From the IMG/VR virus record IMGVR_UViG_3300046010_001786: a DNA stretch of 20,000 nt; one strand, 5' to 3'. This document shows, in pieces, positions 11,587 to 19,999 of this stretch. The position numbers were made by a program, and so were the translations under genes. Origin of the DNA: an uncultured virus (IMG/VR IMGVR_UViG_3300046010_001786) (Duplodnaviria; Heunggongvirae; Uroviricota; Caudoviricetes). Position 1 is the stretch's first letter. Every line of letters begins with the position of its first letter. The notes below the pieces were generated by a model, which had not been told where the DNA came from, ran no database searches, and saw only the letters and a program-made list of their open reading frames with translations.

Positions 11587-12050
11587 CCTCGGCCTTTCAA
11601 CATGTATAACCAGATTGCACCGACCATCAGCCCAACAAATATAGACCCTGCCACAAACAACCAGAACCCCAGAAGAAGCTGTTCCATCAGTCTTGCACGG
11701 CGAACTTTCTTCTCCTGCGCTGCCTTTGCTACTTCTCGTGCTGCTGCTTCTCTATTCTGCCTAGCCTTGACTTGAAACGCTTGCCAGTCATCCCACAGCC
11801 CAGGTCTGCCCTGGTAGATAAACATTTCCCGCAGTTCCTGCTCTTGCTTCTTTAACTGCTCTAGCGCAAAGAATTCTTCTAGGTCGTTGCGCTTGTGATC
11901 CGGTGTTGCTACTACTTTTTCTTGAATCTTTGCCTTGTTGTCGAAATACTCAAATACCGCTTTGCCAGCCTGGATGATCTCCCCGCTGTTATTGATAGCC
12001 TCCTTTATCACTGCAAAGGCTGCGTTGGCAGCAGCAAGTTCTAACAACAT
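11583..12050 (-). CDS. Hypothetical coiled-coil protein with C-terminal TM anchor
   Basis: Helical, charged body (LEEFFALEQLKKQEQELREM, GRPGLWDDW), a basic stretch, then about 25 hydrophobic residues at the C-terminus. Confidence 0.7.
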   Translation of the reverse strand: MLLELAAANAAFAVIKEAINNSGEIIQAGKAVFEYFDNKAKIQEKVVATPDHKRNDLEEFFALEQLKKQEQELREMFIYQGRPGLWDDWQAFQVKARQNREAAAREVAKAAQEKKVRRARLMEQLLLGFWLFVAGSIFVGLMVGAIWLYMLKGRG

Positions 12051-12065
12051 GACAGACCCTTTCCA

Positions 12066-12377
12066 TTACCAAGGAACCCCTTGGGCGGTTTGTACGTGCT
12101 GCTTAGCTATGGAAGAAATTAAACCTCGCTCCATCTGAGCAATTCTTTCTGGGCCTAACTGCTCTTGAACCCATGCAATAGTCTCAGCTTCAGTGAGCTG
12201 GTCAAACGGTATAAAGTCTGGGTCTGACGGAGACTTGTACGGCACCTTTTGGCCCACGTTTCCATTGGCTTTATATTGACCATCTACCATCGAGACATTG
12301 CAACAAACCATGATTACCACGCCTTCTGGCACGGTACGAATTAGGTTATATACATTCCAGATCATCTGGTTATCCAT
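12066..12377 (-). CDS. Small tail-fibre-associated hypothetical protein
   Basis: FIPFDQLTE...IAWV...LG and terminal G-x-PW motifs, a pattern I recognise from small genes following phage fibre genes. 8-nt overlap with the fibre gene. Confidence 0.65.
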   Translation of the reverse strand: MDNQMIWNVYNLIRTVPEGVVIMVCCNVSMVDGQYKANGNVGQKVPYKSPSDPDFIPFDQLTEAETIAWVQEQLGPERIAQMERGLISSIAKQHVQTAQGVPW

Positions 12378-14019
12378 TCACCTTCTCCTTCAACGCATTG
12401 ATCTCTGCACGGAGCTTCTGAATCTCTTTCAGCATCGGCGCAATAAGCTGTTCGTAATTGATGCCAGCAACTTCACCCTTAACAAATGCACAAATCTCTG
12501 GGCGCACAGTAACAACGTCTTCGGCAATAAGGCCAAACTCTGCTGTTTCATGGATCTTGCCCGTATAGGAACCGTCTTCAGCTCTTTCACGACGGTTATA
12601 TGACACAGGCTCCAAAGACATCAACCAGTCTGCGTCTGCTATTGGCGCAATGTTAGCCTTCGACTCACGGGTAGAACTTAAGGTGCCAACAAGCCCGGTG
12701 TTATCTATATAAAGAGCACGATTAGTGCCGCCTACCGCAATTGAATACGTATCATCAAACAACACTCTATTGTCGGCTCGCAAAGAATACGTGCGACCAG
12801 CAGCTACTGTTTTAAGAGACGCATTTGCCGCTGGAGTGTCATTAATACCAATCTCTCCAGTTGCGGTAATTAATATGCGACCAAATCCGTCTGTATAAAT
12901 AGCAAAGTCTTGTGTTACACCAGTACCAACAGAATTTGATTCTATAAATGCGTTAATTGGAGAAGAGTAAAGAGATACATAGCTACAATTTGCTGGGTCT
13001 GTTGACCCATACAGAATTAATGACGTATCACTTTGTATTGACGAGACTCCAGGAATTACCCCTAAAGAAGTTCCCATAGTCGGCGTTGAGTGCTGCAACA
13101 AAAAACCATTAGCGTTTTGCGAATCAAACTTCGCTTGAAGCCTTCTAGCATCTCCACTAAATACTAAGTTGGCACCAATAGTTTGATTGGCCGTAAACGT
13201 CTGGGCTTCTTCAAGAAACGCAAAGGTTCTGTTGCCTGACACAGCAGGTACTGTCAGCGTCCTGGCTGCATTGGTGGTGTAGTTAATTGTTGCTTTGTTA
13301 GTCTGGGTGCCAACGTTCAATGTACCAATGTTGCCGGTGGTCATTGAAATTGTTGATGCTGAAAAAGAACCTGTTCCGTCTCTGGCCACAATCGTGGATG
13401 CTGTACTTGCAGACGCTGTAGTGATCGCGTGGGTGTGAGTTGATCCAGACACTAGGTTAGTTGTCGTGGTGTCGAGCGTGCTTGGCGTTCCAAGAGTTAC
13501 CGATCCAGTCGTGGTAATCGTGGAGAAGTTCATCCCATTACCAGCCGCAACAGATGAGACCGTGCCACCTGCCGTGGAGATTGCCGCCCCGCCAATCGTT
13601 GCTCCAGCAGGAAGATTAGTCACCGCGTTTACTACGTCCGTCCCATTGTTGTATAGGTGCATCGTCGCACCGTTGGGCACAGAGACACCTGTCTGGCCAG
13701 CTACCTTGACCGTAACCGCAAATCCACCAGTCGTACCGTTTTTGACGATGTAAGCTTTTTGGACCGCTGGAACTTCTAGGACAGCAGCTCCGCCAGGCGT
13801 GCCCGTAAGGTTCAGATAAAGCGCCCGAGCATCTTGTGCCGCATTGGTATTTGTGAGCGTGAGCTGTTCAGTTGTGCTCGACATCGTCACATCTGCTTTG
13901 CCACCTATGGCCTGCTCAATGGCTGTGCCTAGGTTCGTGTTTGTGGTTTGCCCCCACGTCGAAACCTGTTCGCCAGTACCAATTAACTCAATTTTTAAAG
14001 GTGAGTATGTAGATGCCAT
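12370..14019 (-). CDS. Tail fibre/spike with C-terminal intramolecular chaperone (peptidase S74-type), 549 aa
   Basis: N-terminal virion-attachment region (MASTYSPLKIELIGTGEQVSTWGQTTNTNL), Thr/Gly-rich shaft, then SSTRESKANI...LMSLEPVSY...FGLIAEDV...INYEQLIAPMLKEIQKL plus coiled coil. Ser and Lys are 5 residues apart as in the S-D-x-R-x-K autocleavage dyad. RBS AAGGA lies within the endonuclease 3' end. Confidence 0.85.
   Translation of the reverse strand: MASTYSPLKIELIGTGEQVSTWGQTTNTNLGTAIEQAIGGKADVTMSSTTEQLTLTNTNAAQDARALYLNLTGTPGGAAVLEVPAVQKAYIVKNGTTGGFAVTVKVAGQTGVSVPNGATMHLYNNGTDVVNAVTNLPAGATIGGAAISTAGGTVSSVAAGNGMNFSTITTTGSVTLGTPSTLDTTTTNLVSGSTHTHAITTASASTASTIVARDGTGSFSASTISMTTGNIGTLNVGTQTNKATINYTTNAARTLTVPAVSGNRTFAFLEEAQTFTANQTIGANLVFSGDARRLQAKFDSQNANGFLLQHSTPTMGTSLGVIPGVSSIQSDTSLILYGSTDPANCSYVSLYSSPINAFIESNSVGTGVTQDFAIYTDGFGRILITATGEIGINDTPAANASLKTVAAGRTYSLRADNRVLFDDTYSIAVGGTNRALYIDNTGLVGTLSSTRESKANIAPIADADWLMSLEPVSYNRRERAEDGSYTGKIHETAEFGLIAEDVVTVRPEICAFVKGEVAGINYEQLIAPMLKEIQKLRAEINALKEKVNG
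13963..14019 (-). repeat. Downstream (functional) copy of the duplicated 19-codon tail fibre 5' end
   Basis: ATG GCA TCT ACA TAC TCA CCT TTA AAA ATT GAG TTA ATT GGT ACT GGC GAA CAG GTT = MASTYSPLKIELIGTGEQV; 39/57 nt identical to 14830..14886. Confidence 0.95.
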
Positions 14020-14811
14020 TTACAAATCCTTTGTTAAATAAACATGGGCCTTGCGTTTTTTTATCAACAAAACCATTTTCTTAGAAACGCTATGAGCTTT
14101 TGCGGTTTGCGCTAAGGATAAATTTGAATAAAAAATTTCTTTTACCGTCTCTTCAGAAAGTTTTGCGTTTTTACTACGCTTCCCTTGAACTGCTAATTTT
14201 TGTGCAGCTATGGTAACTGCACGTAACCTATCAAACATTTCTTTTGTTTGTTGTCGTCTTTCGTTGCTTAATGGAAGTTTCCTTGATCCTTGTTTAACTA
14301 AAATTGGTGGGTGCTGTGCATCTAAATGCTTCCAACACTTTCCTTGCCTTGCTGCTTTAATTGTATCGACATTGATCTTTTGCCCAAACGCTTCTTCAAG
14401 CATCTCTAACAATTCCCTATTTGACTTGTTCCACAGACTAGGGCTTCTGATAAACGCAACCATCTCTTCTGTAAGTTTTGCGTTATGAGACTCTTCTCCT
14501 ATTTTGCGAACAACTTTGCCTTCTCCTTCTCCTCCCAAAGTAAGGTTGTATCCTCCACTACGTACATACGATCCGTACTGCGCTATCAATCCTTTTTCTA
14601 CAGCTTGTATCTCTAATCGATCAACACCTTCATACAATAGGACAATTTGAAACTGGTCTATTCCGTGCTTTCGCATAGCCTTATACAACGGCGTATCAAG
14701 ACCAGAACGAGCGGCGCATTTGTGCTCTCGCCAACGCTTTTCCAATGAACAGGCAGTAATGCCAATATACAACTTGTCATTTATTTTGTTAGTGATCTTG
14801 TATACGTACAT
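14020..14811 (-). CDS. Free-standing GIY-YIG homing endonuclease (Seg/I-TevI-like catalytic domain) with two C-terminal HTH-like modules
   Basis: YVYKITNKINDKLYIGIT (GIY...YIG variant), conserved Arg/His in KRWREH, Glu in VEKGLI, GYNLTLGGEG. Two repeats GEESHNAKLTEEMV and GKRSKNAKLSEETV. AT-richer than the flanks (60-nt lines sampled at 33-47% GC vs 50-55%). Confidence 0.92.
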   Translation of the reverse strand: MYVYKITNKINDKLYIGITACSLEKRWREHKCAARSGLDTPLYKAMRKHGIDQFQIVLLYEGVDRLEIQAVEKGLIAQYGSYVRSGGYNLTLGGEGEGKVVRKIGEESHNAKLTEEMVAFIRSPSLWNKSNRELLEMLEEAFGQKINVDTIKAARQGKCWKHLDAQHPPILVKQGSRKLPLSNERRQQTKEMFDRLRAVTIAAQKLAVQGKRSKNAKLSEETVKEIFYSNLSLAQTAKAHSVSKKMVLLIKKRKAHVYLTKDL

Positions 14812-14817
14812 TGCAAT

Positions 14818-14886
14818 TTAAACTCCGGCTACCTGCTCACCGGTTCCAATCAGTTCAATCTTTAATGGGCTGTAATCACTTGCCAT
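14818..14886 (-). pseudogene. 22-codon mini-ORF MASDYSPLKIELIGTGEQVAGV*, displaced 5' remnant of the tail fibre gene
   Basis: ATG at 14886, 3 nt after the previous stop, with a GGAG RBS. 18 of the first 19 aa match the N-terminus of 12370..14019. TAA at 14820-14818. Confidence 0.9.
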
Positions 14887-14889
14887 GAT

Positions 14890-15270
14890 TTACTCCGCTT
14901 CTACGTTGCCTGCGACCTGCATTTCAATCCAAGAACCCGTGTCTTCATCCCACGAATACATACCGCCTTCAGGCATTGGCACCGGTGCCTCCCACTGGGC
15001 CGTGTCATTGTTCAGCAGCCAAGACGCAAAAGGTTTGGGCGGTACAAACGCATCAATGTCGGCGTTGTAGGTGTAACCGATACCAGCGTAGTTCTTGCGG
15101 ATGGTGCCGTTGTAAGAGGTTTGCTTCCATGTGCCGCCAAAGAGTTTCTCGCAGAACGCAGCCCCGATGTATTCCTTCTCCACACCATTAGCGTCTGCCG
15201 TGTCTTTGTTAGCCACCACGATGACTTGCGTCACCACGTTATTACCGTCAATCTGGGCGAAGTGCGCCAT
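14890..15270 (-). CDS. Conserved phage hypothetical protein (MAHFA-type), possible fibre assembly factor
   Basis: MAHFAQID..NVVTQVIVV, WKQTSYN...RKNYAGIGYTY...DAFVPPKPFASW...WEAPVPMP...YSWDE. RBS AAGGAG. I recognise this pattern from genes beside Gly-rich fibre genes; function is inferred. Confidence 0.75.
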   Translation of the reverse strand: MAHFAQIDGNNVVTQVIVVANKDTADANGVEKEYIGAAFCEKLFGGTWKQTSYNGTIRKNYAGIGYTYNADIDAFVPPKPFASWLLNNDTAQWEAPVPMPEGGMYSWDEDTGSWIEMQVAGNVEAE

Positions 15271-15281
15271 TTAGATCTCCT

Positions 15282-15854
15282 TTACCAAGTCCATGAAACG
15301 TATGAATAACGAATGCCCGATTTCACAGGCTTTACCTCATGCGGATACATGAAGTTACTGGGAAAAACTACTACCGCCCCAGCAGGCAGATGAATACGGT
15401 GGTCACCAAACATCATCAACTCACCGCCTTCGTAATCGTCGTTTAAAGCACCCAGTATCGTCAAGGTTGGGATGCCTTTTCGCTGACCATCAAACATCGA
15501 ATGAATGTGGTCACAGTGCAGTTTCATCTGCGTGGTCGGGTCATACCGGTTAAACCGAATATTGGTGTACCCATTCCAGCCGCCAAACCAAGACTCAAAA
15601 CTAGCGAAGTCCTTTAATACATAGCGCTCGACGGCAAACCAGACCTGCTTATTGATCTCGGCCTTCTCTGCAATATCGTCATGGCTAATGGCTAGTTCGT
15701 GGTCGTAACTGACATAAGAGTCAGTCCCAGACTGATAGAAGGTGTGCTGCTTCCAGTTGATCTTGTCGAGGTTCTCTGAAGCCGACTTGCATAGATCCAC
15801 AGGTAGGTGGTTTTCATACACCTTGACATAATCTAGGAGATTCTGCGGCGTCAC
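15282..15854 (-). CDS. Prolyl-4-hydroxylase-like 2OG-Fe(II) oxygenase
   Basis: HxD (HCD), LNDDYEGGEL, VVFPSNFMYPHEVKPV (distal His) and G-x-RYSYVSW (2OG-binding Arg). GTG start overlapping the upstream TGA. Confidence 0.9.
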   Translation of the reverse strand: MTPQNLLDYVKVYENHLPVDLCKSASENLDKINWKQHTFYQSGTDSYVSYDHELAISHDDIAEKAEINKQVWFAVERYVLKDFASFESWFGGWNGYTNIRFNRYDPTTQMKLHCDHIHSMFDGQRKGIPTLTILGALNDDYEGGELMMFGDHRIHLPAGAVVVFPSNFMYPHEVKPVKSGIRYSYVSWTW

Positions 15855-16450
15855 AGGTGTAGCCCAGTCAATGATTCGTCTTGCCCAAAGTTGCCGATGG
15901 GGAAGGTGTTAAACGACAGACTAATGCGAGTCTGCTTACCCTCTACGGTCTCAACCATGTGCGTCAGGTGAGAGGGGAATATAAAGAGTCGGCCTGTGTA
16001 GGCTTCCATCCACCAAGACTCAGAGTTGTACGGATTGAAGTCTTCTGTAGGCGTCTTTAGTTGCTGATACCCGTCACGGTAGAAATAGATCTTGTCCGTT
16101 TCTTTATCGGCCTGGGGGTAAAACACACCAGAGACAAACGAATTGGGGTGAGCGTGTTTGTGGTGAAACTGACCCGGCTCGGTGTAATTGCACCATGACT
16201 GCGTGATGCGGAGCGTGGTCTCGTGCTTGGGGGCGTAGACGGCCTTGAAATAATTGGCAACAGACTGCTCAATAAAGTCCTTCACACCCTTTAGTTCAGG
16301 GTTCTTTAGGATCGTGTTATCGACGCTTGTGGTATTGCCCATGTTATTGCGCTTCTCTTGGTTCTTGATGAACGCAATTTCTGTCTCGGTAAAGTCACGC
16401 CCGAGGTCGAACATACTTAATGCGGTAGGAAATAGGTTGTGGATATTCAC
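15851..16450 (-). CDS. 2OG-Fe(II) oxygenase, HxH type (TIGR02466-like)
   Basis: LFPT N-terminus, QSWCN, HAHPNSFVSGVFY, LFIFPSHLTHMV and RISLSFN. GTG start overlapping the upstream TGA. Confidence 0.9.
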   Translation of the reverse strand: MNIHNLFPTALSMFDLGRDFTETEIAFIKNQEKRNNMGNTTSVDNTILKNPELKGVKDFIEQSVANYFKAVYAPKHETTLRITQSWCNYTEPGQFHHKHAHPNSFVSGVFYPQADKETDKIYFYRDGYQQLKTPTEDFNPYNSESWWMEAYTGRLFIFPSHLTHMVETVEGKQTRISLSFNTFPIGNFGQDESLTGLHL

Positions 16451-16714: not shown

Positions 16715-19700
16715 TTACCAACGAATTATGACAATTCCTGCGCCGCCTGCGCCGCCTGCATATCCAATATTATAAGTTGGGTTATTCGTACCGCCGCCAC
16801 CGCCGCCGCCACCCGTGTTAACAACTCCATTTGAACCAGCAGTATTTGTTGGGCCACCGTCGCCGCCACCCCCTGTACCACCAGTTCCCCTCGTAGCACC
16901 GCCCCCACCACCGCCCCCACCACCAGCGTAAGTTACAGACACACCAGAAATCGACGACGCTGTACCAGTGCCACCATTACCGGATTGTGTTGTTGTCCCA
17001 TTGGCCCCAACTGCTGATGCGCCGCCACCACCCCCCGCTCCATAGTTTGCAGAGGCAGTGTTATTTCCACCGTTATTGCCTTGTGATGGAGACACTGATG
17101 GTGTGTCACCAGCCCCTCCTGTCAAACTTGCTGCACGAATCCCAGCGCCGCCGCCAGAACCACCAGAACCACCATTACCTGCTGTTGCTGCAATTCCCGC
17201 AGCGCCAAACCCTCCACCGGCAGATGTTATGGTACTAAATACTGAATTTGACCCGGCCACACCATTATTTAAAGCAGGGGCAGTTGCCTGAGCACCGCCA
17301 CTGCCTCCAGCGCCTACTGTTACTGTATAAGACGTTCCAGCAGTGACTGCCAAACCGTTTCCAGTGCGATAACCCCCCGCACCTCCGCCACCGCCGCCCG
17401 AACCACCTCCACCACCCCCCGCTACAACGAGGTACTCGACTTCAGTAACCCCCGTTGGGCATACCCATGTGCTAGTAGCCTGGAAGATTTGGAAATTGGG
17501 CTTGGAGAGGTATTTAAGGATCACGATACCGGAGCCGCCGTTGCCACCAGTTGCTGACGTTGGTGCATTCCAACCGCCTCCACCAGCACCACCACCTGTG
17601 TTATCTGTGCCATTACCTCCAGCAGTAGCGGCTGGAGTTGCATTACCACCATTTCCACCACCACCTGTACCGCCTGTACCACCTGTAGTTCCACCCCCAC
17701 TATGACCGCCACCACCTCCACCACCGGAATACGTTACTGATGTGCCAGAAATAGAGGATGCTGTGCCGTTACCGCCACCTCGTGCTGGAGAACCGCTTGC
17801 CGATTGACCTACTGCGGATGCGCCACCGCCACCTCCGCCACCAAATAGGGTAGGGCCATAAATTCCTGAACCTCCGTTGTTTCCTTGGCTTGGCGAAACA
17901 GAAGGTGTATTTCCTGTACCGCCTGGGCCAAACGTAGCTGGCCCATCTTTAAGAGTGCCGCCACCACCAGAACCTCCATCTGCTCCCGTAGCAACTGCTG
18001 CCGAAGGGTTATTTATATAAGAACCACCGCCTCCGCCACCCGCAGAAGTAATTGTGCTGAATGTTGAAGACGTTCCAGAGTCAGCTTTTACTGATGAATT
18101 TTTACCAGCACCACCGGCACCAACAGTAACCGGATAAGAAGTTCCTGGGGTAACAGAAAGCCCTGTCCCCGTTCTAAAACCACCAGCACCGCCTCCACCA
18201 CCAATGTGACCACCTCCACCACCGCCAGCCACGACGAGATACTCCACCGTGCTGACCCCTGGTGGGGCTACCCATGTTCCTGAAGATGTAAAGGTGTTTG
18301 TGACCTGTAAGGCTTGAGTCCACTTGAGAATGACAATGCCGGAGCCGCCTGCGCCAGCAGCAATGTTGTCATCTCCAGCGCCGCCTCCGCCTCCGCCTGT
18401 GTTAGCGGTTCCAGCACTTCCAACAGCAGGGGCTTTTCCTCCAGCGCCGCCTCCGCCAGAACCTCCTGAACCAGCCGATCCTCCACTAGATCCCATCCCA
18501 CCGCCACCACCACCTGCATAAGTGAAAGATGATCCAGATATAGTGGATGCGGTTCCATTACCACCATTACCCGATGCGGGAGATGTTGCATTACCACCTA
18601 CCGCACTAGCACCGCCGCCACCTCCAGATGGTCTATTGTTGGCACTTCCAGATGTGAAACCATTGCCCCCATTATTTCCCTGAGATGGCGATGTAACGGG
18701 AGTATTACCAGAGCCGCCAAGCCCCTGTGTCGTGAAAAAACCTCCAGCACCGCCGCCTGATCCACCGTTCCCGCCATTTGTATCAAAACTAGCCCCGTTA
18801 CCCCCACCAGCAGATGTAATGGCGCTGGGTGCATTTCCAAATACGGAATTTGCGCCAGGACTCCCTTGATTATTGGGCGCATTTCCAGTAGCGGCAGCAC
18901 CGCCTGCACCAACAGTTACAGTGTATGAAGTACCTGCGGTAACAGAAAGTCCAGTTCCAGTTCTAAATCCGCCTGCTCCGCCTCCGCCACCCTGTTGCCT
19001 AGCTCCCCCACCCCCACCAGCAACCACAAGGTACTCAACACTTGTCACCCCTTCAGGGGCAGTCCAGTTGCCAGATGATGTAAAGGTCTGAACTACATCA
19101 ATCGTAGTCGCAGGAGTGACCGTGTATTTGATGATGACAATACCTGAGCCGCCGTTGCCACCGTCACCATCTATGGAGGGAGAACTAATAAATGCACCGC
19201 CGCCTCCACCACCACCAGTATTGACTGTGCCAGCCGTAGCATTTCCTGGACTAACACCACTACCACCCGCACCACCACCGCCTGTACCACCTGCGCCTCC
19301 TGTAGTTACAGGGGAACGTGAATCAGATCCTCCGCCACCGCCGCCAGCGTAAGTTACAGATGTACCAGAAATAGAAGATGCTGTGCCATTACCACCCGCA
19401 CCAGCAGTCGTAGTTGTGGCCCCAGTTCCAGTAGCGCCTGCACCGCCACCGCCACCCCCAACGGCATAAGAAGTTCCAGACCCATTTCCTGCTCCACCAT
19501 TATTGCCCTGTGAAGGGGACTGTGTTGGGGTGTTTCCTGTACCACCAGAATAAAAAACTATTGTTGAGGGTGATGTAAACCCTGTACTTCCGCCACCCCC
19601 AGATCCACCATTTTGACCAGAAGAAATATTAGGGTCTGCTGGTGAAGAATAAGATCCACCACCACCACCACCTGCTGACGTAATAGCTGATGGTGCATTA

Positions 19701-19999
19701 CCAAAGGCCGAATCCGTGCCAGCGGAACCTCTTGTTCCTCGTGCTGTAGCAGCATTACCACCTGCCCCAATAGTTACCGTATAAGCAGTTCCAGCGACCA
19801 CGGGCAAGGCTGTACCGGTTCTATATCCACCAGCACCACCACCACCAGCCAAAGTAGATCCACCTCCACCCCCACCAGCAACAACCAAATACTCAACCTC
19901 TGTTACACCAGCAGGGCAGACCCATGTGGTCGAAGAGGTAAACGTCTGGATGACGGTGTAAGGCTGTGCCGCCGATGGGCGAAGAAAACCTAAGAGAGC
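16715..19999 (-). CDS. Glycine-rich tail fibre/adhesin-like protein with four tandem Gly-rich domains (5' end outside the window)
   Basis: The frame stays open upstream of the track's 19888 start (ALLGFLRPSAAQPYTVIQTFTSSTTWVCPAGVTEVEYLVVAGGGGG), so the true start is beyond the edge. Four units each run from F-x-x-[ST]-x-x-W-x-x-P-x-GV-x-x-VEYLVVAGGGGG to GG[SA]GIVI[IL][KR][YW]. Confidence 0.9.
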   Translation of the reverse strand, partial: ALLGFLRPSAAQPYTVIQTFTSSTTWVCPAGVTEVEYLVVAGGGGGGSTLAGGGGAGGYRTGTALPVVAGTAYTVTIGAGGNAATARGTRGSAGTDSAFGNAPSAITSAGGGGGGSYSSPADPNISSGQNGGSGGGGSTGFTSPSTIVFYSGGTGNTPTQSPSQGNNGGAGNGSGTSYAVGGGGGGAGATGTGATTTTAGAGGNGTASSISGTSVTYAGGGGGGSDSRSPVTTGGAGGTGGGGAGGSGVSPGNATAGTVNTGGGGGGGAFISSPSIDGDGGNGGSGIVIIKYTVTPATTIDVVQTFTSSGNWTAPEGVTSVEYLVVAGGGGGARQQGGGGGAGGFRTGTGLSVTAGTSYTVTVGAGGAAATGNAPNNQGSPGANSVFGNAPSAITSAGGGNGASFDTNGGNGGSGGGAGGFFTTQGLGGSGNTPVTSPSQGNNGGNGFTSGSANNRPSGGGGGASAVGGNATSPASGNGGNGTASTISGSSFTYAGGGGGGMGSSGGSAGSGGSGGGGAGGKAPAVGSAGTANTGGGGGGAGDDNIAAGAGGSGIVILKWTQALQVTNTFTSSGTWVAPPGVSTVEYLVVAGGGGGGHIGGGGGAGGFRTGTGLSVTPGTSYPVTVGAGGAGKNSSVKADSGTSSTFSTITSAGGGGGGSYINNPSAAVATGADGGSGGGGTLKDGPATFGPGGTGNTPSVSPSQGNNGGSGIYGPTLFGGGGGGGASAVGQSASGSPARGGGNGTASSISGTSVTYSGGGGGGGHSGGGTTGGTGGTGGGGNGGNATPAATAGGNGTDNTGGGAGGGGWNAPTSATGGNGGSGIVILKYLSKPNFQIFQATSTWVCPTGVTEVEYLVVAGGGGGGSGGGGGGAGGYRTGNGLAVTAGTSYTVTVGAGGSGGAQATAPALNNGVAGSNSVFSTITSAGGGFGAAGIAATAGNGGSGGSGGGAGIRAASLTGGAGDTPSVSPSQGNNGGNNTASANYGAGGGGGASAVGANGTTTQSGNGGTGTASSISGVSVTYAGGGGGGGGGATRGTGGTGGGGDGGPTNTAGSNGVVNTGGGGGGGGTNNPTYNIGYAGGAGGAGIVIIRW
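16718..19960 (-). repeat. Four diverged tandem coding repeats of about 0.8 kb
   Basis: EYLVVAGG anchors near 19890, 19030, 18240 and 17430. Shared motifs GAGG[YF]RTG, G[ND]TP...SPSQGNNGG, GTAS[ST]ISG...TY[AS]GGGGGG and NTGGG. Confidence 0.9.

What the first reader, a model, noticed from the sequence alone, without database searches (positions are those of the whole stretch)
13963..14886. Homing endonuclease inside a tail fibre gene carries its own synonymously recoded replacement 5' end
Seen: the GIY-YIG gene lies between two copies of the fibre's first 19 codons. The upstream copy (14886-14830, MASDYSPLKIELIGTGEQV, then AGV-stop) is truncated; the downstream copy (14019-13963, MASTYSPLKIELIGTGEQV) continues into the full gene. 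Of the 18 identical residues, 11 use different codons, including both Ser AGY-to-TCN switches. DNA identity is 39/57, and the downstream copy is AT-richer (21 vs 25 G+C), like the endonuclease. This is not a simple target-site duplication. Established: free-standing GIY-YIG enzymes (T4 seg genes) spread by intron-less homing, and some fungal mitochondrial endonuclease elements restore the invaded gene by carrying a replacement terminus. Inference: this splicing-free cassette cuts the conserved 5' region of an essential structural gene, displaces the native start and supplies a cleavage-resistant start with an RBS. I cannot judge from sequence alone whether this phage 5'-replacement arrangement is already described.
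Basis: partly seen in the sequence, partly recalled or inferred. Interest (0 to 1): 0.9.

Follow-up and report, generated by a model that had tools for sequence, protein, structure and literature searches.

The report
Homing endonuclease displacing tail-fibre gene start
A selfish DNA-cutting-enzyme gene has recently invaded the start of a lake phage's tail-fibre gene, bringing a foreign copy of the first 25 codons and leaving the original first 20 codons as a dead stub; this is a clean natural before-and-after snapshot of a known kind of gene spread.

Summary
On the minus strand lie the MAHFA gene (15270-14890), a 60-nt stub of the fibre start (14886-14827), an 882-nt insert (14826-13945), and the rest of the fibre gene. 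The insert holds 15 nt of foreign leader, an intact I-TevI-like GIY-YIG gene, and 75 nt of foreign fibre start.

- An endonuclease-free relative (L081) has one fibre gene directly after MAHFA. Its first 60 nt match the stub 60/60.
- Over the 1650-nt gene it differs from the window at 25 positions, 24 of them in nt 7-75.
- Independent contigs of public runs span both junctions. Other contigs carry the empty allele.
- All 42 analysable relatives of the endonuclease abut a fibre start. 34 have no stub. A second lineage has a 74-nt stub and its own empty allele (L255). A third fuses five fibre codons to the enzyme.

Best reading (0.72): a free-standing endonuclease homes into fibre genes cut near the invariant T-W-G codons. 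It co-converts a foreign, presumably resistant start, and stubs mark imprecise left joins. "Synonymous recoding" is just a foreign natural allele. Cleavage is untested.

Earlier unchecked notes of this scan report this layout on other phage DNA many times.

The parts
14890..15270 (-). Upstream neighbour gene (126 aa, starts MAHFA), function unknown. It is the left flank of the invaded site.
   Evidence: ORF. phrog_7759, unknown function, E 4e-46. No Pfam match. 95% aa identical to the gene directly upstream of the fibre gene in L081.
14827..14886 (-). Stub: the native first 60 nt (20 codons) of the fibre gene, with its own GGAG ribosome site and ATG.
   Evidence: 60/60 identical to the fibre start of endonuclease-free L081, as are the 20 nt upstream. 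The empty-allele contig of run X6 joins 14827 directly to 13959.
14812..14826 (-). Left end of the imported segment: GGAGTTTAA, which closes the stub ORF as ..AGV-stop, plus a 6-nt spacer before the endonuclease ATG. Probably the last codons and spacer of the donor's upstream gene.
   Evidence: Sequence. In other carriers the gene upstream of the endonuclease ends 6-9 nt before its ATG with ..ATAGCCGCATAA..ATAGCGGCCTAA or ..ATAGCAGCGTAA. This suggests a TAGCC microhomology with fibre nt 56-60. Inference.
14020..14811 (-). Free-standing GIY-YIG homing endonuclease gene (263 aa). N-terminal I-TevI-like catalytic domain, a disordered linker, then two helix-turn-helix-like helical modules.
   Evidence: Pfam PF01541 E 3.3e-10. 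PHROG homing endonuclease families, E 1e-28. I-TevI catalytic domain 1mk0 by sequence, E 1.3e-3, and 1ln0_A by fold, TM 0.79, rmsd 2.2 (model pLDDT 72.5). Y4, Y15, G17, R26, H30, E72 and N89 are invariant in 9 relatives. G+C 39.0% against 51.1% for the window.
14027..14031 (-). AAGGA, a likely ribosome-binding site of the live fibre gene, inside the last codons of the endonuclease gene. The endonuclease stop TAA (14022-14020) abuts the fibre ATG (14019).
   Evidence: Sequence. The C-terminus ..KAHVYLTK[DEG]L and the -4 to +2 nt spacing to the fibre ATG are conserved in relatives.
13945..14019 (-). Imported foreign fibre start (nt 1-75 of the live gene): 24 substitutions relative to L081 in nt 7-75. 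17 codons changed, 15 synonymous, plus D4T and A20S.
   Evidence: Fisher test of 24/69 against 1/1575, p = 3e-34.
12370..13944 (-). Native remainder of the tail-fibre gene (nt 76-1650), with a C-terminal intramolecular chaperone domain.
   Evidence: 1 mismatch in 1575 nt to L081. Pfam Peptidase_S74 E 1e-5. PHROG tail and tail-fibre families. N-terminal relatives are annotated as tail or tail-fibre proteins in cultured phages.
11842..14976 (-). Block of near-identity to L081 that encloses the insertion site. It covers the end of MAHFA, the fibre gene, the DUF7936 gene and the start of the next gene. The flanks are only 87-96% identical.
   Evidence: Apart from the insert and its 24 changes, the only differences inside the block are at 13806 and 12033.

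Best explanation
The element is a free-standing, I-TevI-like GIY-YIG homing endonuclease gene. Its family lives immediately in front of tail-fibre genes of freshwater phages.

Shown:
- The window's lineage was recently an empty allele like L081, with MAHFA followed directly by the fibre gene.
- It gained an 882-nt segment made of 15 nt of foreign leader, the endonuclease gene and 75 nt of a foreign fibre start.
- The native first 60 nt were left upstream as a 22-codon stub ORF.

Inferred mechanism:
1. During co-infection the enzyme cut the empty allele within roughly nt 55-80 of the fibre gene, around the invariant T-W-G codons (TGGGG).
2. The right end of the break invaded the donor's fibre gene. 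Repair synthesis copied leftwards through the donor's (presumably uncuttable) fibre start and the endonuclease gene.
3. On the right, exchange resolved about 15 nt beyond the break. That is why only nt 1-75 are foreign.
4. On the left there was no usable homology, because the donor had a different upstream gene. The end was joined at a short microhomology (TAGCC), and everything left of the break stayed as a stub.

The three ORFs are tightly stacked. The stub stop lies 6 nt before the endonuclease ATG, and the endonuclease stop abuts the fibre ATG. The enzyme is therefore probably translated by re-initiation from the fibre's original ribosome site, and the fibre from the AAGGA inside the endonuclease gene's end.

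Where both flanks are homologous, the same homing gives the clean, stub-free arrangement seen in most relatives.
For: Before and after alleles:
- L081 has MAHFA then fibre, with nt 1-60 identical to the stub.
- 24 of the 25 differences in the 1650-nt gene lie in nt 7-75.
- L081 nt 61-75 are absent from the window, so L081 cannot be a deletion derivative of it.
- The empty allele also appears in runs X6 (1963-nt contig, depth 23, joint 13959->14827) and X3 (depth 6). The carrier form spans both junctions in X1 and X3, and the right junction in X5.

Enzyme intact.

Family habit:
- 42 of 42 analysable carriers have the endonuclease stop -4 to +2 nt from a fibre ATG. These are 37 of 39 IMG/VR loci, 4 metagenome loci and the window.
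- 34 of the 42 show no stub.

Second, independent event:
- L185, L186, L188 and L189 carry a 74-nt stub (tblastn E 1.6e-11).
- That stub is 74/74 identical to the fibre start of the empty relative L255.
- Their live gene differs from L255 by 26, 13, 3, 2 and 0 positions per successive 75 nt. The foreign tract therefore ends about 22 nt beyond the stub end.
- The two left junctions lie 4 nt before and 8 nt after the start of the invariant TGG.

Other support:
- Microhomology hint at the left junction.
- No intron: no Rfam match of note across 13500-15400.
- Published mechanisms. Intronless homing with co-conversion, and one-sided homing by illegitimate repair at microhomologies, are described in the T4 review PMC2988022 (sections 5 and 7 read).
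Against: - No cleavage data exist. The cut site, and the resistance of the imported start, are inferred from junction geometry only.
- The direct donor was not found. The nearest endonuclease relative is 66% identical, and exact searches for the imported start and for the left leader found nothing. The microhomology argument rests on distant relatives.
- In the second stub lineage the recipient did have an upstream gene of the same kind as the donors' (W-repeat protein). Lack of left homology is therefore not a sufficient explanation there.
- Stubs recur in 3 lineages, counting the 5-codon in-frame fusion in L176, L178 and L181. In every case the stub is tightly coupled to the endonuclease start, which could mean the stub form is selected rather than accidental.
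- A comparison of bases around TGGGG in 29 carrier and 36 empty alleles gave no interpretable resistance signature, because the two sets come from different protein subfamilies.
Confidence: 0.72

Rival explanations
1. Dedicated start-replacement cassette. Stub, endonuclease gene and new start together form the evolved mobile unit. The stub serves as the left homology arm and as the translational launch pad for the enzyme, and the unit homes as such from phage to phage.
For: - The layout recurs in three lineages of this one family.
- The stub ORF always ends 0-6 nt from the endonuclease start, or is fused to it.
- The 3.1-kb block of near-identity to L081 encloses the insert asymmetrically, 150 nt to the left and 2.1 kb to the right. 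It could be the co-conversion tract of a later homologous homing of the whole unit.
- Many unchecked notes of this scan describe the same layout in other phages and nuclease families.
Against: - 34 of 42 carriers have no stub, and the enzyme there starts 1-10 nt after an unrelated gene's stop.
- Stub lengths differ (5, 20 and 24 codons), and the stubs match each lineage's own empty allele exactly. They arose separately and were not inherited with the element.
- No second backbone carrying the window's stub form was found.
Confidence: 0.15
2. The endonuclease is a passenger. Ordinary illegitimate or modular recombination between co-infecting phages, which often swap fibre modules, created the junctions without any cut by this enzyme.
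For: - Fibre modules do swap in this group. L001 shares the window's backbone (93-95% DNA identity on both sides) but has a fibre gene with only 48% aa identity over its N-terminal 129 residues.
- The conserved N-terminal coding region is a natural crossover point.
Against: - Two independent events put the left junction within about 12 nt of the same invariant TGGGG. Each has a foreign tract ending only 15-25 nt further on. That is the signature of a site-specific break next to the nuclease gene.
- The enzyme's catalytic residues are conserved across relatives down to 49% identity in the 9-sequence alignment.
- It abuts a fibre start in 42 of 42 carriers.
Confidence: 0.08
3. Assembly chimera joining reads of two co-occurring strains.
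For: - The window is a metagenome-derived IMG/VR contig (30,367 nt, about 50% complete).
- Carrier and empty alleles co-occur in the same samples.
Against: - Logan contigs built by a different assembler span both junctions with 0 differences at even depth in X1 and X3.
- A 497-nt contig from another sample (X5) spans the endonuclease end, the imported start and the native part.
- A chimeric left join would need a shared 31-mer between a fibre start and an unrelated gene end.
Confidence: 0.02
4. Local tandem duplication of the fibre start, followed by divergence in place.
For: There are two copies in direct orientation.
Against: The stub is 60/60 identical to L081, and the gene beyond nt 75 is 1574/1575 identical. 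That leaves no time for 24 substitutions in 69 nt. The intervening DNA is foreign, with 39% G+C.
Confidence: 0.01

Closest known systems
Free-standing GIY-YIG 'Seg' homing endonucleases of phage T4 (intronless homing). Review: Edgell, Gibb and Belfort 2010, PMC2988022; sections 5 and 7 and matched passages read.
   Same: - The GIY-YIG enzyme is encoded outside any intron or intein, between conserved genes.
- It is present or absent among close relatives.
- It spreads with co-conversion of flanking donor sequence.
   Different: - By that review, T4 free-standing enzymes cut hundreds to thousands of bp away from their own gene. Here the junction geometry puts the cut within about 60-80 nt of the gene.
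- Here the invaded gene's start is duplicated. The passages I read report nothing like this for the Seg genes.
[quoted passage not shown] Seen only as summarised and cited in PMC2988022 section 5; the paper itself is not held.
   Same: Homology on one side of the break only, and junctions at microhomologies on the other side. It was proposed as the route by which such elements invade new sites.
   Different: That was a laboratory construct with the td intron. Here it is a natural event with a free-standing gene, and both the empty and the filled allele survive in lake metagenomes.
Mobile endonuclease ORFs (mORFs) that make gene hybrids in fungal mitochondria: Allomyces macrogynus atp6, and Glomus atp6, atp9, cox2 and nad3. 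Beaudet et al. 2013, PMC3630166, matched passages read. The Allomyces work is known to me only as cited there.
   Same: - The endonuclease ORF sits inside a protein gene with no splicing.
- A foreign, divergent duplicate of the gene's terminus arrives with it.
- The native terminus persists and stays nearly identical to that of the close relative. Their values are 91-98% for the native end against 64-81% for the inserted one. Here they are 100% against 68%.
   Different: - The terminus is the opposite one. The fungal cases replace the 3' end in phase with the gene body. Here the 5' end is replaced, with a new ribosome site and start codon.
- The genome is a phage, not an organelle.
Endonuclease insertions that split phage genes but keep them working: T4 mobA with gene 39/60, and Aeromonas phage Aeh1 mobE in nrdA. 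Recalled. For mobA/gene 60 I saw only a search listing.
   Same: A free-standing endonuclease lands inside an essential gene, and function is kept without splicing.
   Different: Those cases yield two polypeptides or a ribosomal bypass. Here the gene stays whole, because a complete substitute start is supplied.
Nuclease genes at the boundaries of genetic exchange between phages. Barth, Dunham and Seed 2023, PMC10448857; abstract and three matched passages seen.
   Same: The endonuclease gene sits at the edge of a recombination block. Here the insert lies 150 nt from the left edge of a 3.1-kb block shared with L081.
   Different: None of the terms tail fiber, remnant, recoded or synonymous occurs in that text. 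It describes no stub or replacement start.

Membership tests
GIY-YIG homing endonucleases (I-TevI / Seg type) | GIY-YIG catalytic domain with the conserved Tyr, Tyr-x-Gly, Arg, His/Tyr, Glu and Asn residues | tested here: met
   PF01541 E 3.3e-10. 1mk0 E 1.3e-3, aligned across the GIY, YIG and Arg region. Fold match to 1ln0_A, TM 0.79, rmsd 2.2 Å over 92 residues. Y4, Y15, G17, R26, H30, E72 and N89 invariant in 9 sequences. That these are the catalytic positions of I-TevI is recalled, not tested.
GIY-YIG homing endonucleases (I-TevI / Seg type) | Separate C-terminal DNA-binding domain joined by a flexible linker | tested here: inconclusive
   The model shows a disordered stretch at residues 82-111 and then helical modules at 112-160 and 220-252. 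The only PDB matches to these are weak ones to bipartite helix-turn-helix domains, E > 0.1.
GIY-YIG homing endonucleases (I-TevI / Seg type) | Site-specific double-strand cleavage of the endonuclease-free allele | not testable with these tools
   Inferred only, from two independent left junctions within about 12 nt of the invariant TGGGG.
Free-standing homing endonuclease genes (intronless homing) | Not embedded in a self-splicing intron or an intein | tested here: met
   Own ATG and stop. The fibre gene restarts with its own ATG. Rfam scan of 13500-15400 at E <= 1 gave only a chance snoRNA match, with no group I or II intron.
Free-standing homing endonuclease genes (intronless homing) | Presence/absence polymorphism at the same site among close relatives | tested here: met
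   Empty alleles: L081, contigs of X6 and X3, and L255 for the second lineage. None of 9 loci with at least 91% identical fibre N-termini (L081-L088, L094) has the gene.
Free-standing homing endonuclease genes (intronless homing) | Co-conversion of donor flanking sequence with the endonuclease gene | tested here: met
   A foreign tract covers nt 1-75 in the window (24 changes, then 1 in 1575 nt) and about nt 1-96 in L256.
Free-standing homing endonuclease genes (intronless homing) | Sits in an intergenic spacer | tested here: not met
   In the window it lies 20 codons inside the former fibre gene, behind a stub. The feature is met in 34 of 42 relatives.
Fungal-mitochondrial-type mORF gene hybrids | Endonuclease ORF plus a foreign duplicate of the invaded gene's terminus, with the native terminus retained and near-identical to that of the close relative | tested here: met
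   Native stub 60/60 to L081. Imported copy 51/75 to L081.
Fungal-mitochondrial-type mORF gene hybrids | The replaced terminus is the C-terminus, read in phase with the gene body | tested here: not met
   Here the N-terminus is replaced, with a new ribosome site and ATG.
Transposon-type target-site duplication | Short, identical direct repeats of the target flanking the insert | tested here: not met
   The copies are 39/57 identical and of unequal extent, 60 against 75 nt of divergence.

The most novel reading that the evidence does not exclude
This endonuclease family is specialised on the invariant anchor-coding start of tail-fibre genes, and it acts as a motor of host-range module exchange among lake phages. 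Each homing event can drag along anything from 75 nt to a whole receptor-binding module. On this reading, the 3.1-kb block shared at about 99.9% between the window and L081, inside backbones that are 87-96% identical, is the co-conversion tract of such an event. The stub, the endonuclease and the new start would then already be moving as one unit.
Probability: 0.2. Interest if true: 0.75.

Novelty: new variant of a known kind. Interest (0 to 1): 0.55.

Why it matters
- **A natural record of a homing event.** Filled and empty alleles differ by essentially nothing but the event itself. This is a natural counterpart to what was worked out with engineered T4 crosses.
- **A testable cut-site prediction.** The scars point to a cleavage region of about 25 nt around the invariant T-W-G codons. 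One in-vitro cleavage assay would test this.
- **Invasion without splicing.** A selfish nuclease can enter an essential structural gene with no intron or intein, by bringing a substitute gene start. My literature searches found this described only for gene ends in fungal mitochondria.
- **Possible link to host range.** The target is the conserved anchor of the receptor-binding fibre, so such elements could influence how host-range modules move between phages.
- **Annotation.** The stub (a 22-codon ORF with a perfect ribosome site) and the seemingly "inserted" nuclease are easy to misread.

Tried and rejected
Searches that found nothing or were not informative:
- Exact search for the imported start (41-mer) and a degenerate search for the left leader plus endonuclease start in IMG/VR: 0 hits each. 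The donor and other carriers of this exact cassette remain unfound. The window's own record may be hidden from those scans.
- Genome-contig scan with the endonuclease: 115 pattern hits, none confirmed.
- blastn against cultured and deposited phages: only 2 weak partial hits. There is no isolate to work with.
- Base-by-base comparison around TGGGG in 29 unique carrier and 36 unique empty alleles, looking for a resistance signature. It was confounded by protein subfamily and is uninterpretable.
- Promoter and terminator scan of 13800-15400: counts no higher than in shuffles.
- Fold search for the C-terminal half of the enzyme: no significant match.

Run evidence that stays inconclusive:
- The X5 record covering 14680-14830 reaches only 4 nt into the stub. 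It does not bridge the left junction.
- X6 holds low-depth endonuclease pieces, but none across the left junction.

Literature:
- Searches for a phage precedent of an endonuclease with a duplicated or replaced gene start found none. The library lacks most subscription journals, and I read no supplements.

Readings rejected:
- Group I intron or intein.
- Target-site duplication, in-place duplication with divergence, and L081 as a deletion derivative.
- My own intermediate view that the stub was a one-off. One search overturned it.
Full report
**1. What is in the window**

All genes of the window lie on the minus strand. Read 5'->3' on that strand:

- a 126-aa gene that starts MAHFA (15270-14890; phrog_7759, function unknown);
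- 3 nt later, a 22-codon ORF, MASDYSPLKIELIGTGEQVAGV-stop (14886-14818);
- 6 nt later, a 263-aa GIY-YIG ORF (14811-14020);
- directly abutting its TAA, a 549-aa tail-fibre gene (14019-12370) that starts MASTYSPLKIELIGTGEQV.

The fibre gene has a C-terminal Peptidase_S74 chaperone domain and tail or tail-fibre PHROG matches. Its N-terminal relatives in cultured phages are annotated as tail, tail-fibre or tailspike proteins.

**2. The endonuclease**

It matches Pfam GIY-YIG (E 3.3e-10) and PHROG homing-endonuclease families. It matches the I-TevI catalytic domain both by sequence (1mk0) and by fold (1ln0_A, TM 0.79, rmsd 2.2 Å; model mean pLDDT 72.5).

In an alignment with eight relatives (49-65% identity), Y4, Y15, G17, R26, H30, E72 and N89 are invariant. 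The enzyme therefore looks active. Behind a disordered linker lie two helical, helix-turn-helix-like modules with no significant PDB match.

Its G+C is 39.0%, against 51.1% for the window. No intron-like RNA is detectable around it.

**3. The empty allele exists, and it matches the stub**

Scans of IMG/VR with the MAHFA protein (80 loci kept) and with the fibre N-terminus (52 loci) gave 132 loci. None has a close copy of the endonuclease.

L081 has MAHFA (95% aa) followed 6 nt later by the fibre gene (97% aa over the first 140 residues).

- Its first 60 nt and the 20 nt before them are identical to the window's stub and leader. The downstream copy matches only 39/57.
- Over the whole 1650-nt gene the window and L081 differ at 25 positions. 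24 lie in nt 7-75 and one at nt 214. Fisher test of 24/69 against 1/1575 gives p = 3e-34.
- L081's nt 61-75 do not occur in the window, so L081 cannot be a deletion product.

The window is the derived state. An 882-nt segment (14826-13945) was added: 15 nt of leader, 792 nt of endonuclease gene and 75 nt of foreign fibre start. The native first 60 nt remain as a stub.

**4. It is not an assembly artefact, and both alleles circulate**

The window equals a 30,367-nt IMG/VR contig.

- Logan contigs of two lake-water runs span both junctions with no differences: X1, 3100 nt, depth 83; X3, 2959 nt, depth 72. These may be the source samples, but the assembler is different.
- A 497-nt contig of another sample (X5) covers 13823-14319 identically.
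- In X6 a 1963-nt contig (depth 23) joins 13959 directly to 14827, which is the empty allele of a roughly 90% related strain. Low-depth pieces of the endonuclease gene are present as well.
- X3 also holds a minor empty allele (depth 6).

**5. Is the new start "recoded"?**

17 codons differ from L081, 15 synonymously; the other two give D4T and A20S.

Endonuclease-free alleles of the same protein subgroup (L081-L087) already differ from each other at 7-18 of 75 nt, with 0-2 amino-acid changes. The imported copy differs from them at 19-24. TCN serine codons also occur in natural alleles.

The imported start is thus the most distant member of a natural series. It is a foreign allele, and nothing points to deliberate re-spelling.

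**6. The family's habit**

Scans with the protein found four full-length relatives in IMG/VR and four further ones in metagenomes. A profile scan found 39 relatives in IMG/VR at 45-66% identity.

In all 42 analysable carriers the endonuclease stop lies -4 to +2 nt from the ATG of a fibre gene with the conserved N-terminus (..G[ED]..G.WG). The 42 are 37 of the 39 IMG/VR loci, 4 metagenome loci and the window. The enzyme's C-terminus ..KAHVYLTK[DEG]L is conserved.

In 34 of the 42 there is no stub. The enzyme's start lies 1-10 nt behind the stop of an unrelated gene. tblastn of each fibre start against the upstream DNA gives E >= 0.019, against 2e-10 for the window as positive control. For L153 only 112 nt of upstream DNA was available.

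**7. Two more stub lineages**

*L185, L186, L188 and L189* are near-identical contigs whose enzyme is 46% identical to the window's.

- They carry MATAYTSLLGLALPVTGELAGTWG+EV-stop 2 nt before the enzyme's ATG (E 1.6e-11).
- An exact search with that stub found L255, an endonuclease-free relative.
- The stub equals L255's fibre start for 74/74 nt and then diverges.
- The live fibre gene differs from L255 by 26, 13, 3, 2 and 0 positions in successive 75-nt bins. The foreign tract therefore ends near nt 96. It changes 9 of 32 residues.

*L176, L178 and L181* have an enzyme ORF that begins MPSSYL|VYKISN or MPATYL|VYKISN. That is the fibre's first five codons fused in frame to codon 2 of the enzyme, and their fibres begin MPSSYT...

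**8. Mechanism**

The two long stubs end 4 nt before and 8 nt after the start of the invariant TGG of the T-W-G motif. In both, the foreign tract stops only 15-25 nt further on. This fits a double-strand break in that roughly 25-nt region, with three consequences:

- short conversion to the right;
- copying of the donor's fibre start and endonuclease gene;
- an imprecise join on the left that preserves everything up to the break.

There is a microhomology hint at the window's left junction. The foreign leader GGAGTTTAA resembles the last codons of the genes that precede the enzyme in other carriers (..ATAGCCGCATAA and similar). This suggests a TAGCC microhomology with fibre nt 56-60.

Both ingredients are described for T4: intronless homing with co-conversion, and one-sided homing through illegitimate repair at microhomologies (PMC2988022, sections 5 and 7). 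Cleavage, resistance of the imported start and the translational coupling of the three stacked ORFs are inferences.

**9. What argues against this reading**

- The donor was not found.
- In the L185 lineage the recipient had an upstream gene of the same kind as the donors', so missing left homology is not a full explanation.
- Recurrent stubs, always tightly coupled to the enzyme's start, leave room for the view that the stub form is itself a selected, mobile unit.

**10. Context**

The window and L081 are nearly identical from 14976 to 11842, apart from the insert. They are only 87-96% identical outside that block. L001 shares the backbone (93-95%), but its fibre N-terminus is only 48% identical in protein.

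So a 3.1-kb fibre module moved recently between lineages, and the insert lies 150 nt from the block's left edge. Whether the endonuclease drove that exchange is open.

**11. Comparison with what is known**

The enzyme is a new member of the free-standing GIY-YIG homing endonucleases.

The layout of stub, endonuclease and substitute start mirrors the mORF gene hybrids of fungal mitochondria, but at the opposite gene end (PMC3630166, passages).

My four literature searches found no phage description. The library is incomplete and I read no supplements.

Earlier unchecked notes of this scan report the same layout on many other phage contigs and with other nuclease families. As an architecture it is therefore not unique to this window. 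This case adds a nearly mismatch-free before/after pair, a second independent pair within the same enzyme family, and a stub-free majority that shows where the element normally sits.

**12. Verdict**

- The element is a new variant of a known kind.
- Interest is 0.55.

Noticed in passing
window 11842-14976, compared with L081 and L001: A 3.1-kb block (end of MAHFA, fibre gene, DUF7936 gene, start of the next gene) is about 99.9% identical to L081. The flanks are 87-96% identical. L001 shares the backbone, but its fibre N-terminus is only 48% identical in protein. This points to a recent exchange of the fibre module between lineages, with the endonuclease 150 nt from the block's left edge.
   Followed up: partly
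L176, L178, L181 (endonuclease ORF starts at about 2483): The endonuclease ORF begins with the fibre gene's own first five codons (MPSSYL- or MPATYL-VYKISN..), behind a GAGG ribosome site. The enzyme seems to have captured the fibre's original start.
   Followed up: partly
L155:1393-2016: A 207-aa relative (57-59% identical) lacks the whole C-terminal helix-turn-helix module yet still abuts a fibre start. It is possibly a decaying copy.
   Followed up: no
L140:363-647 and L162:3001-3285: A GIY-YIG gene matching only residues 1-96 of the window's enzyme (44%) lies about 350 nt upstream of a fibre start of the same N-terminal type. This could be another, shorter or degraded, member of the association.
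   Followed up: no
window 15282-15854 and 15851-16450 (minus strand): Two adjacent, overlapping 2OG-Fe(II) oxygenase genes (PF13640, PF13759) lie just upstream of the MAHFA gene, inside a tail-gene cluster.
   Followed up: no
window 16715-19888 (minus strand): A 1057-aa protein with four Gly_rich_2 domain stretches (PF21722, E 1e-88). Its internally repeated DNA also aligns with itself in L081.
   Followed up: no
L134-L136, L152, L155, L156, L185 and L255, upstream of the endonuclease or fibre gene: The gene that usually precedes the endonuclease or fibre gene encodes short repeats ending in Trp (..TQTANWQNIGNTQSPSW..). Its function is unknown. Its 3' end seems to supply the left junction sequences.
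   Followed up: no
runs X3 and X6 laid on window 13600-15300: Carrier and empty alleles co-occur in the same lake samples at very different ratios: about 72:6 in X3 and about 3:23 in X6, by contig depth, which is only a rough measure.
   Followed up: no
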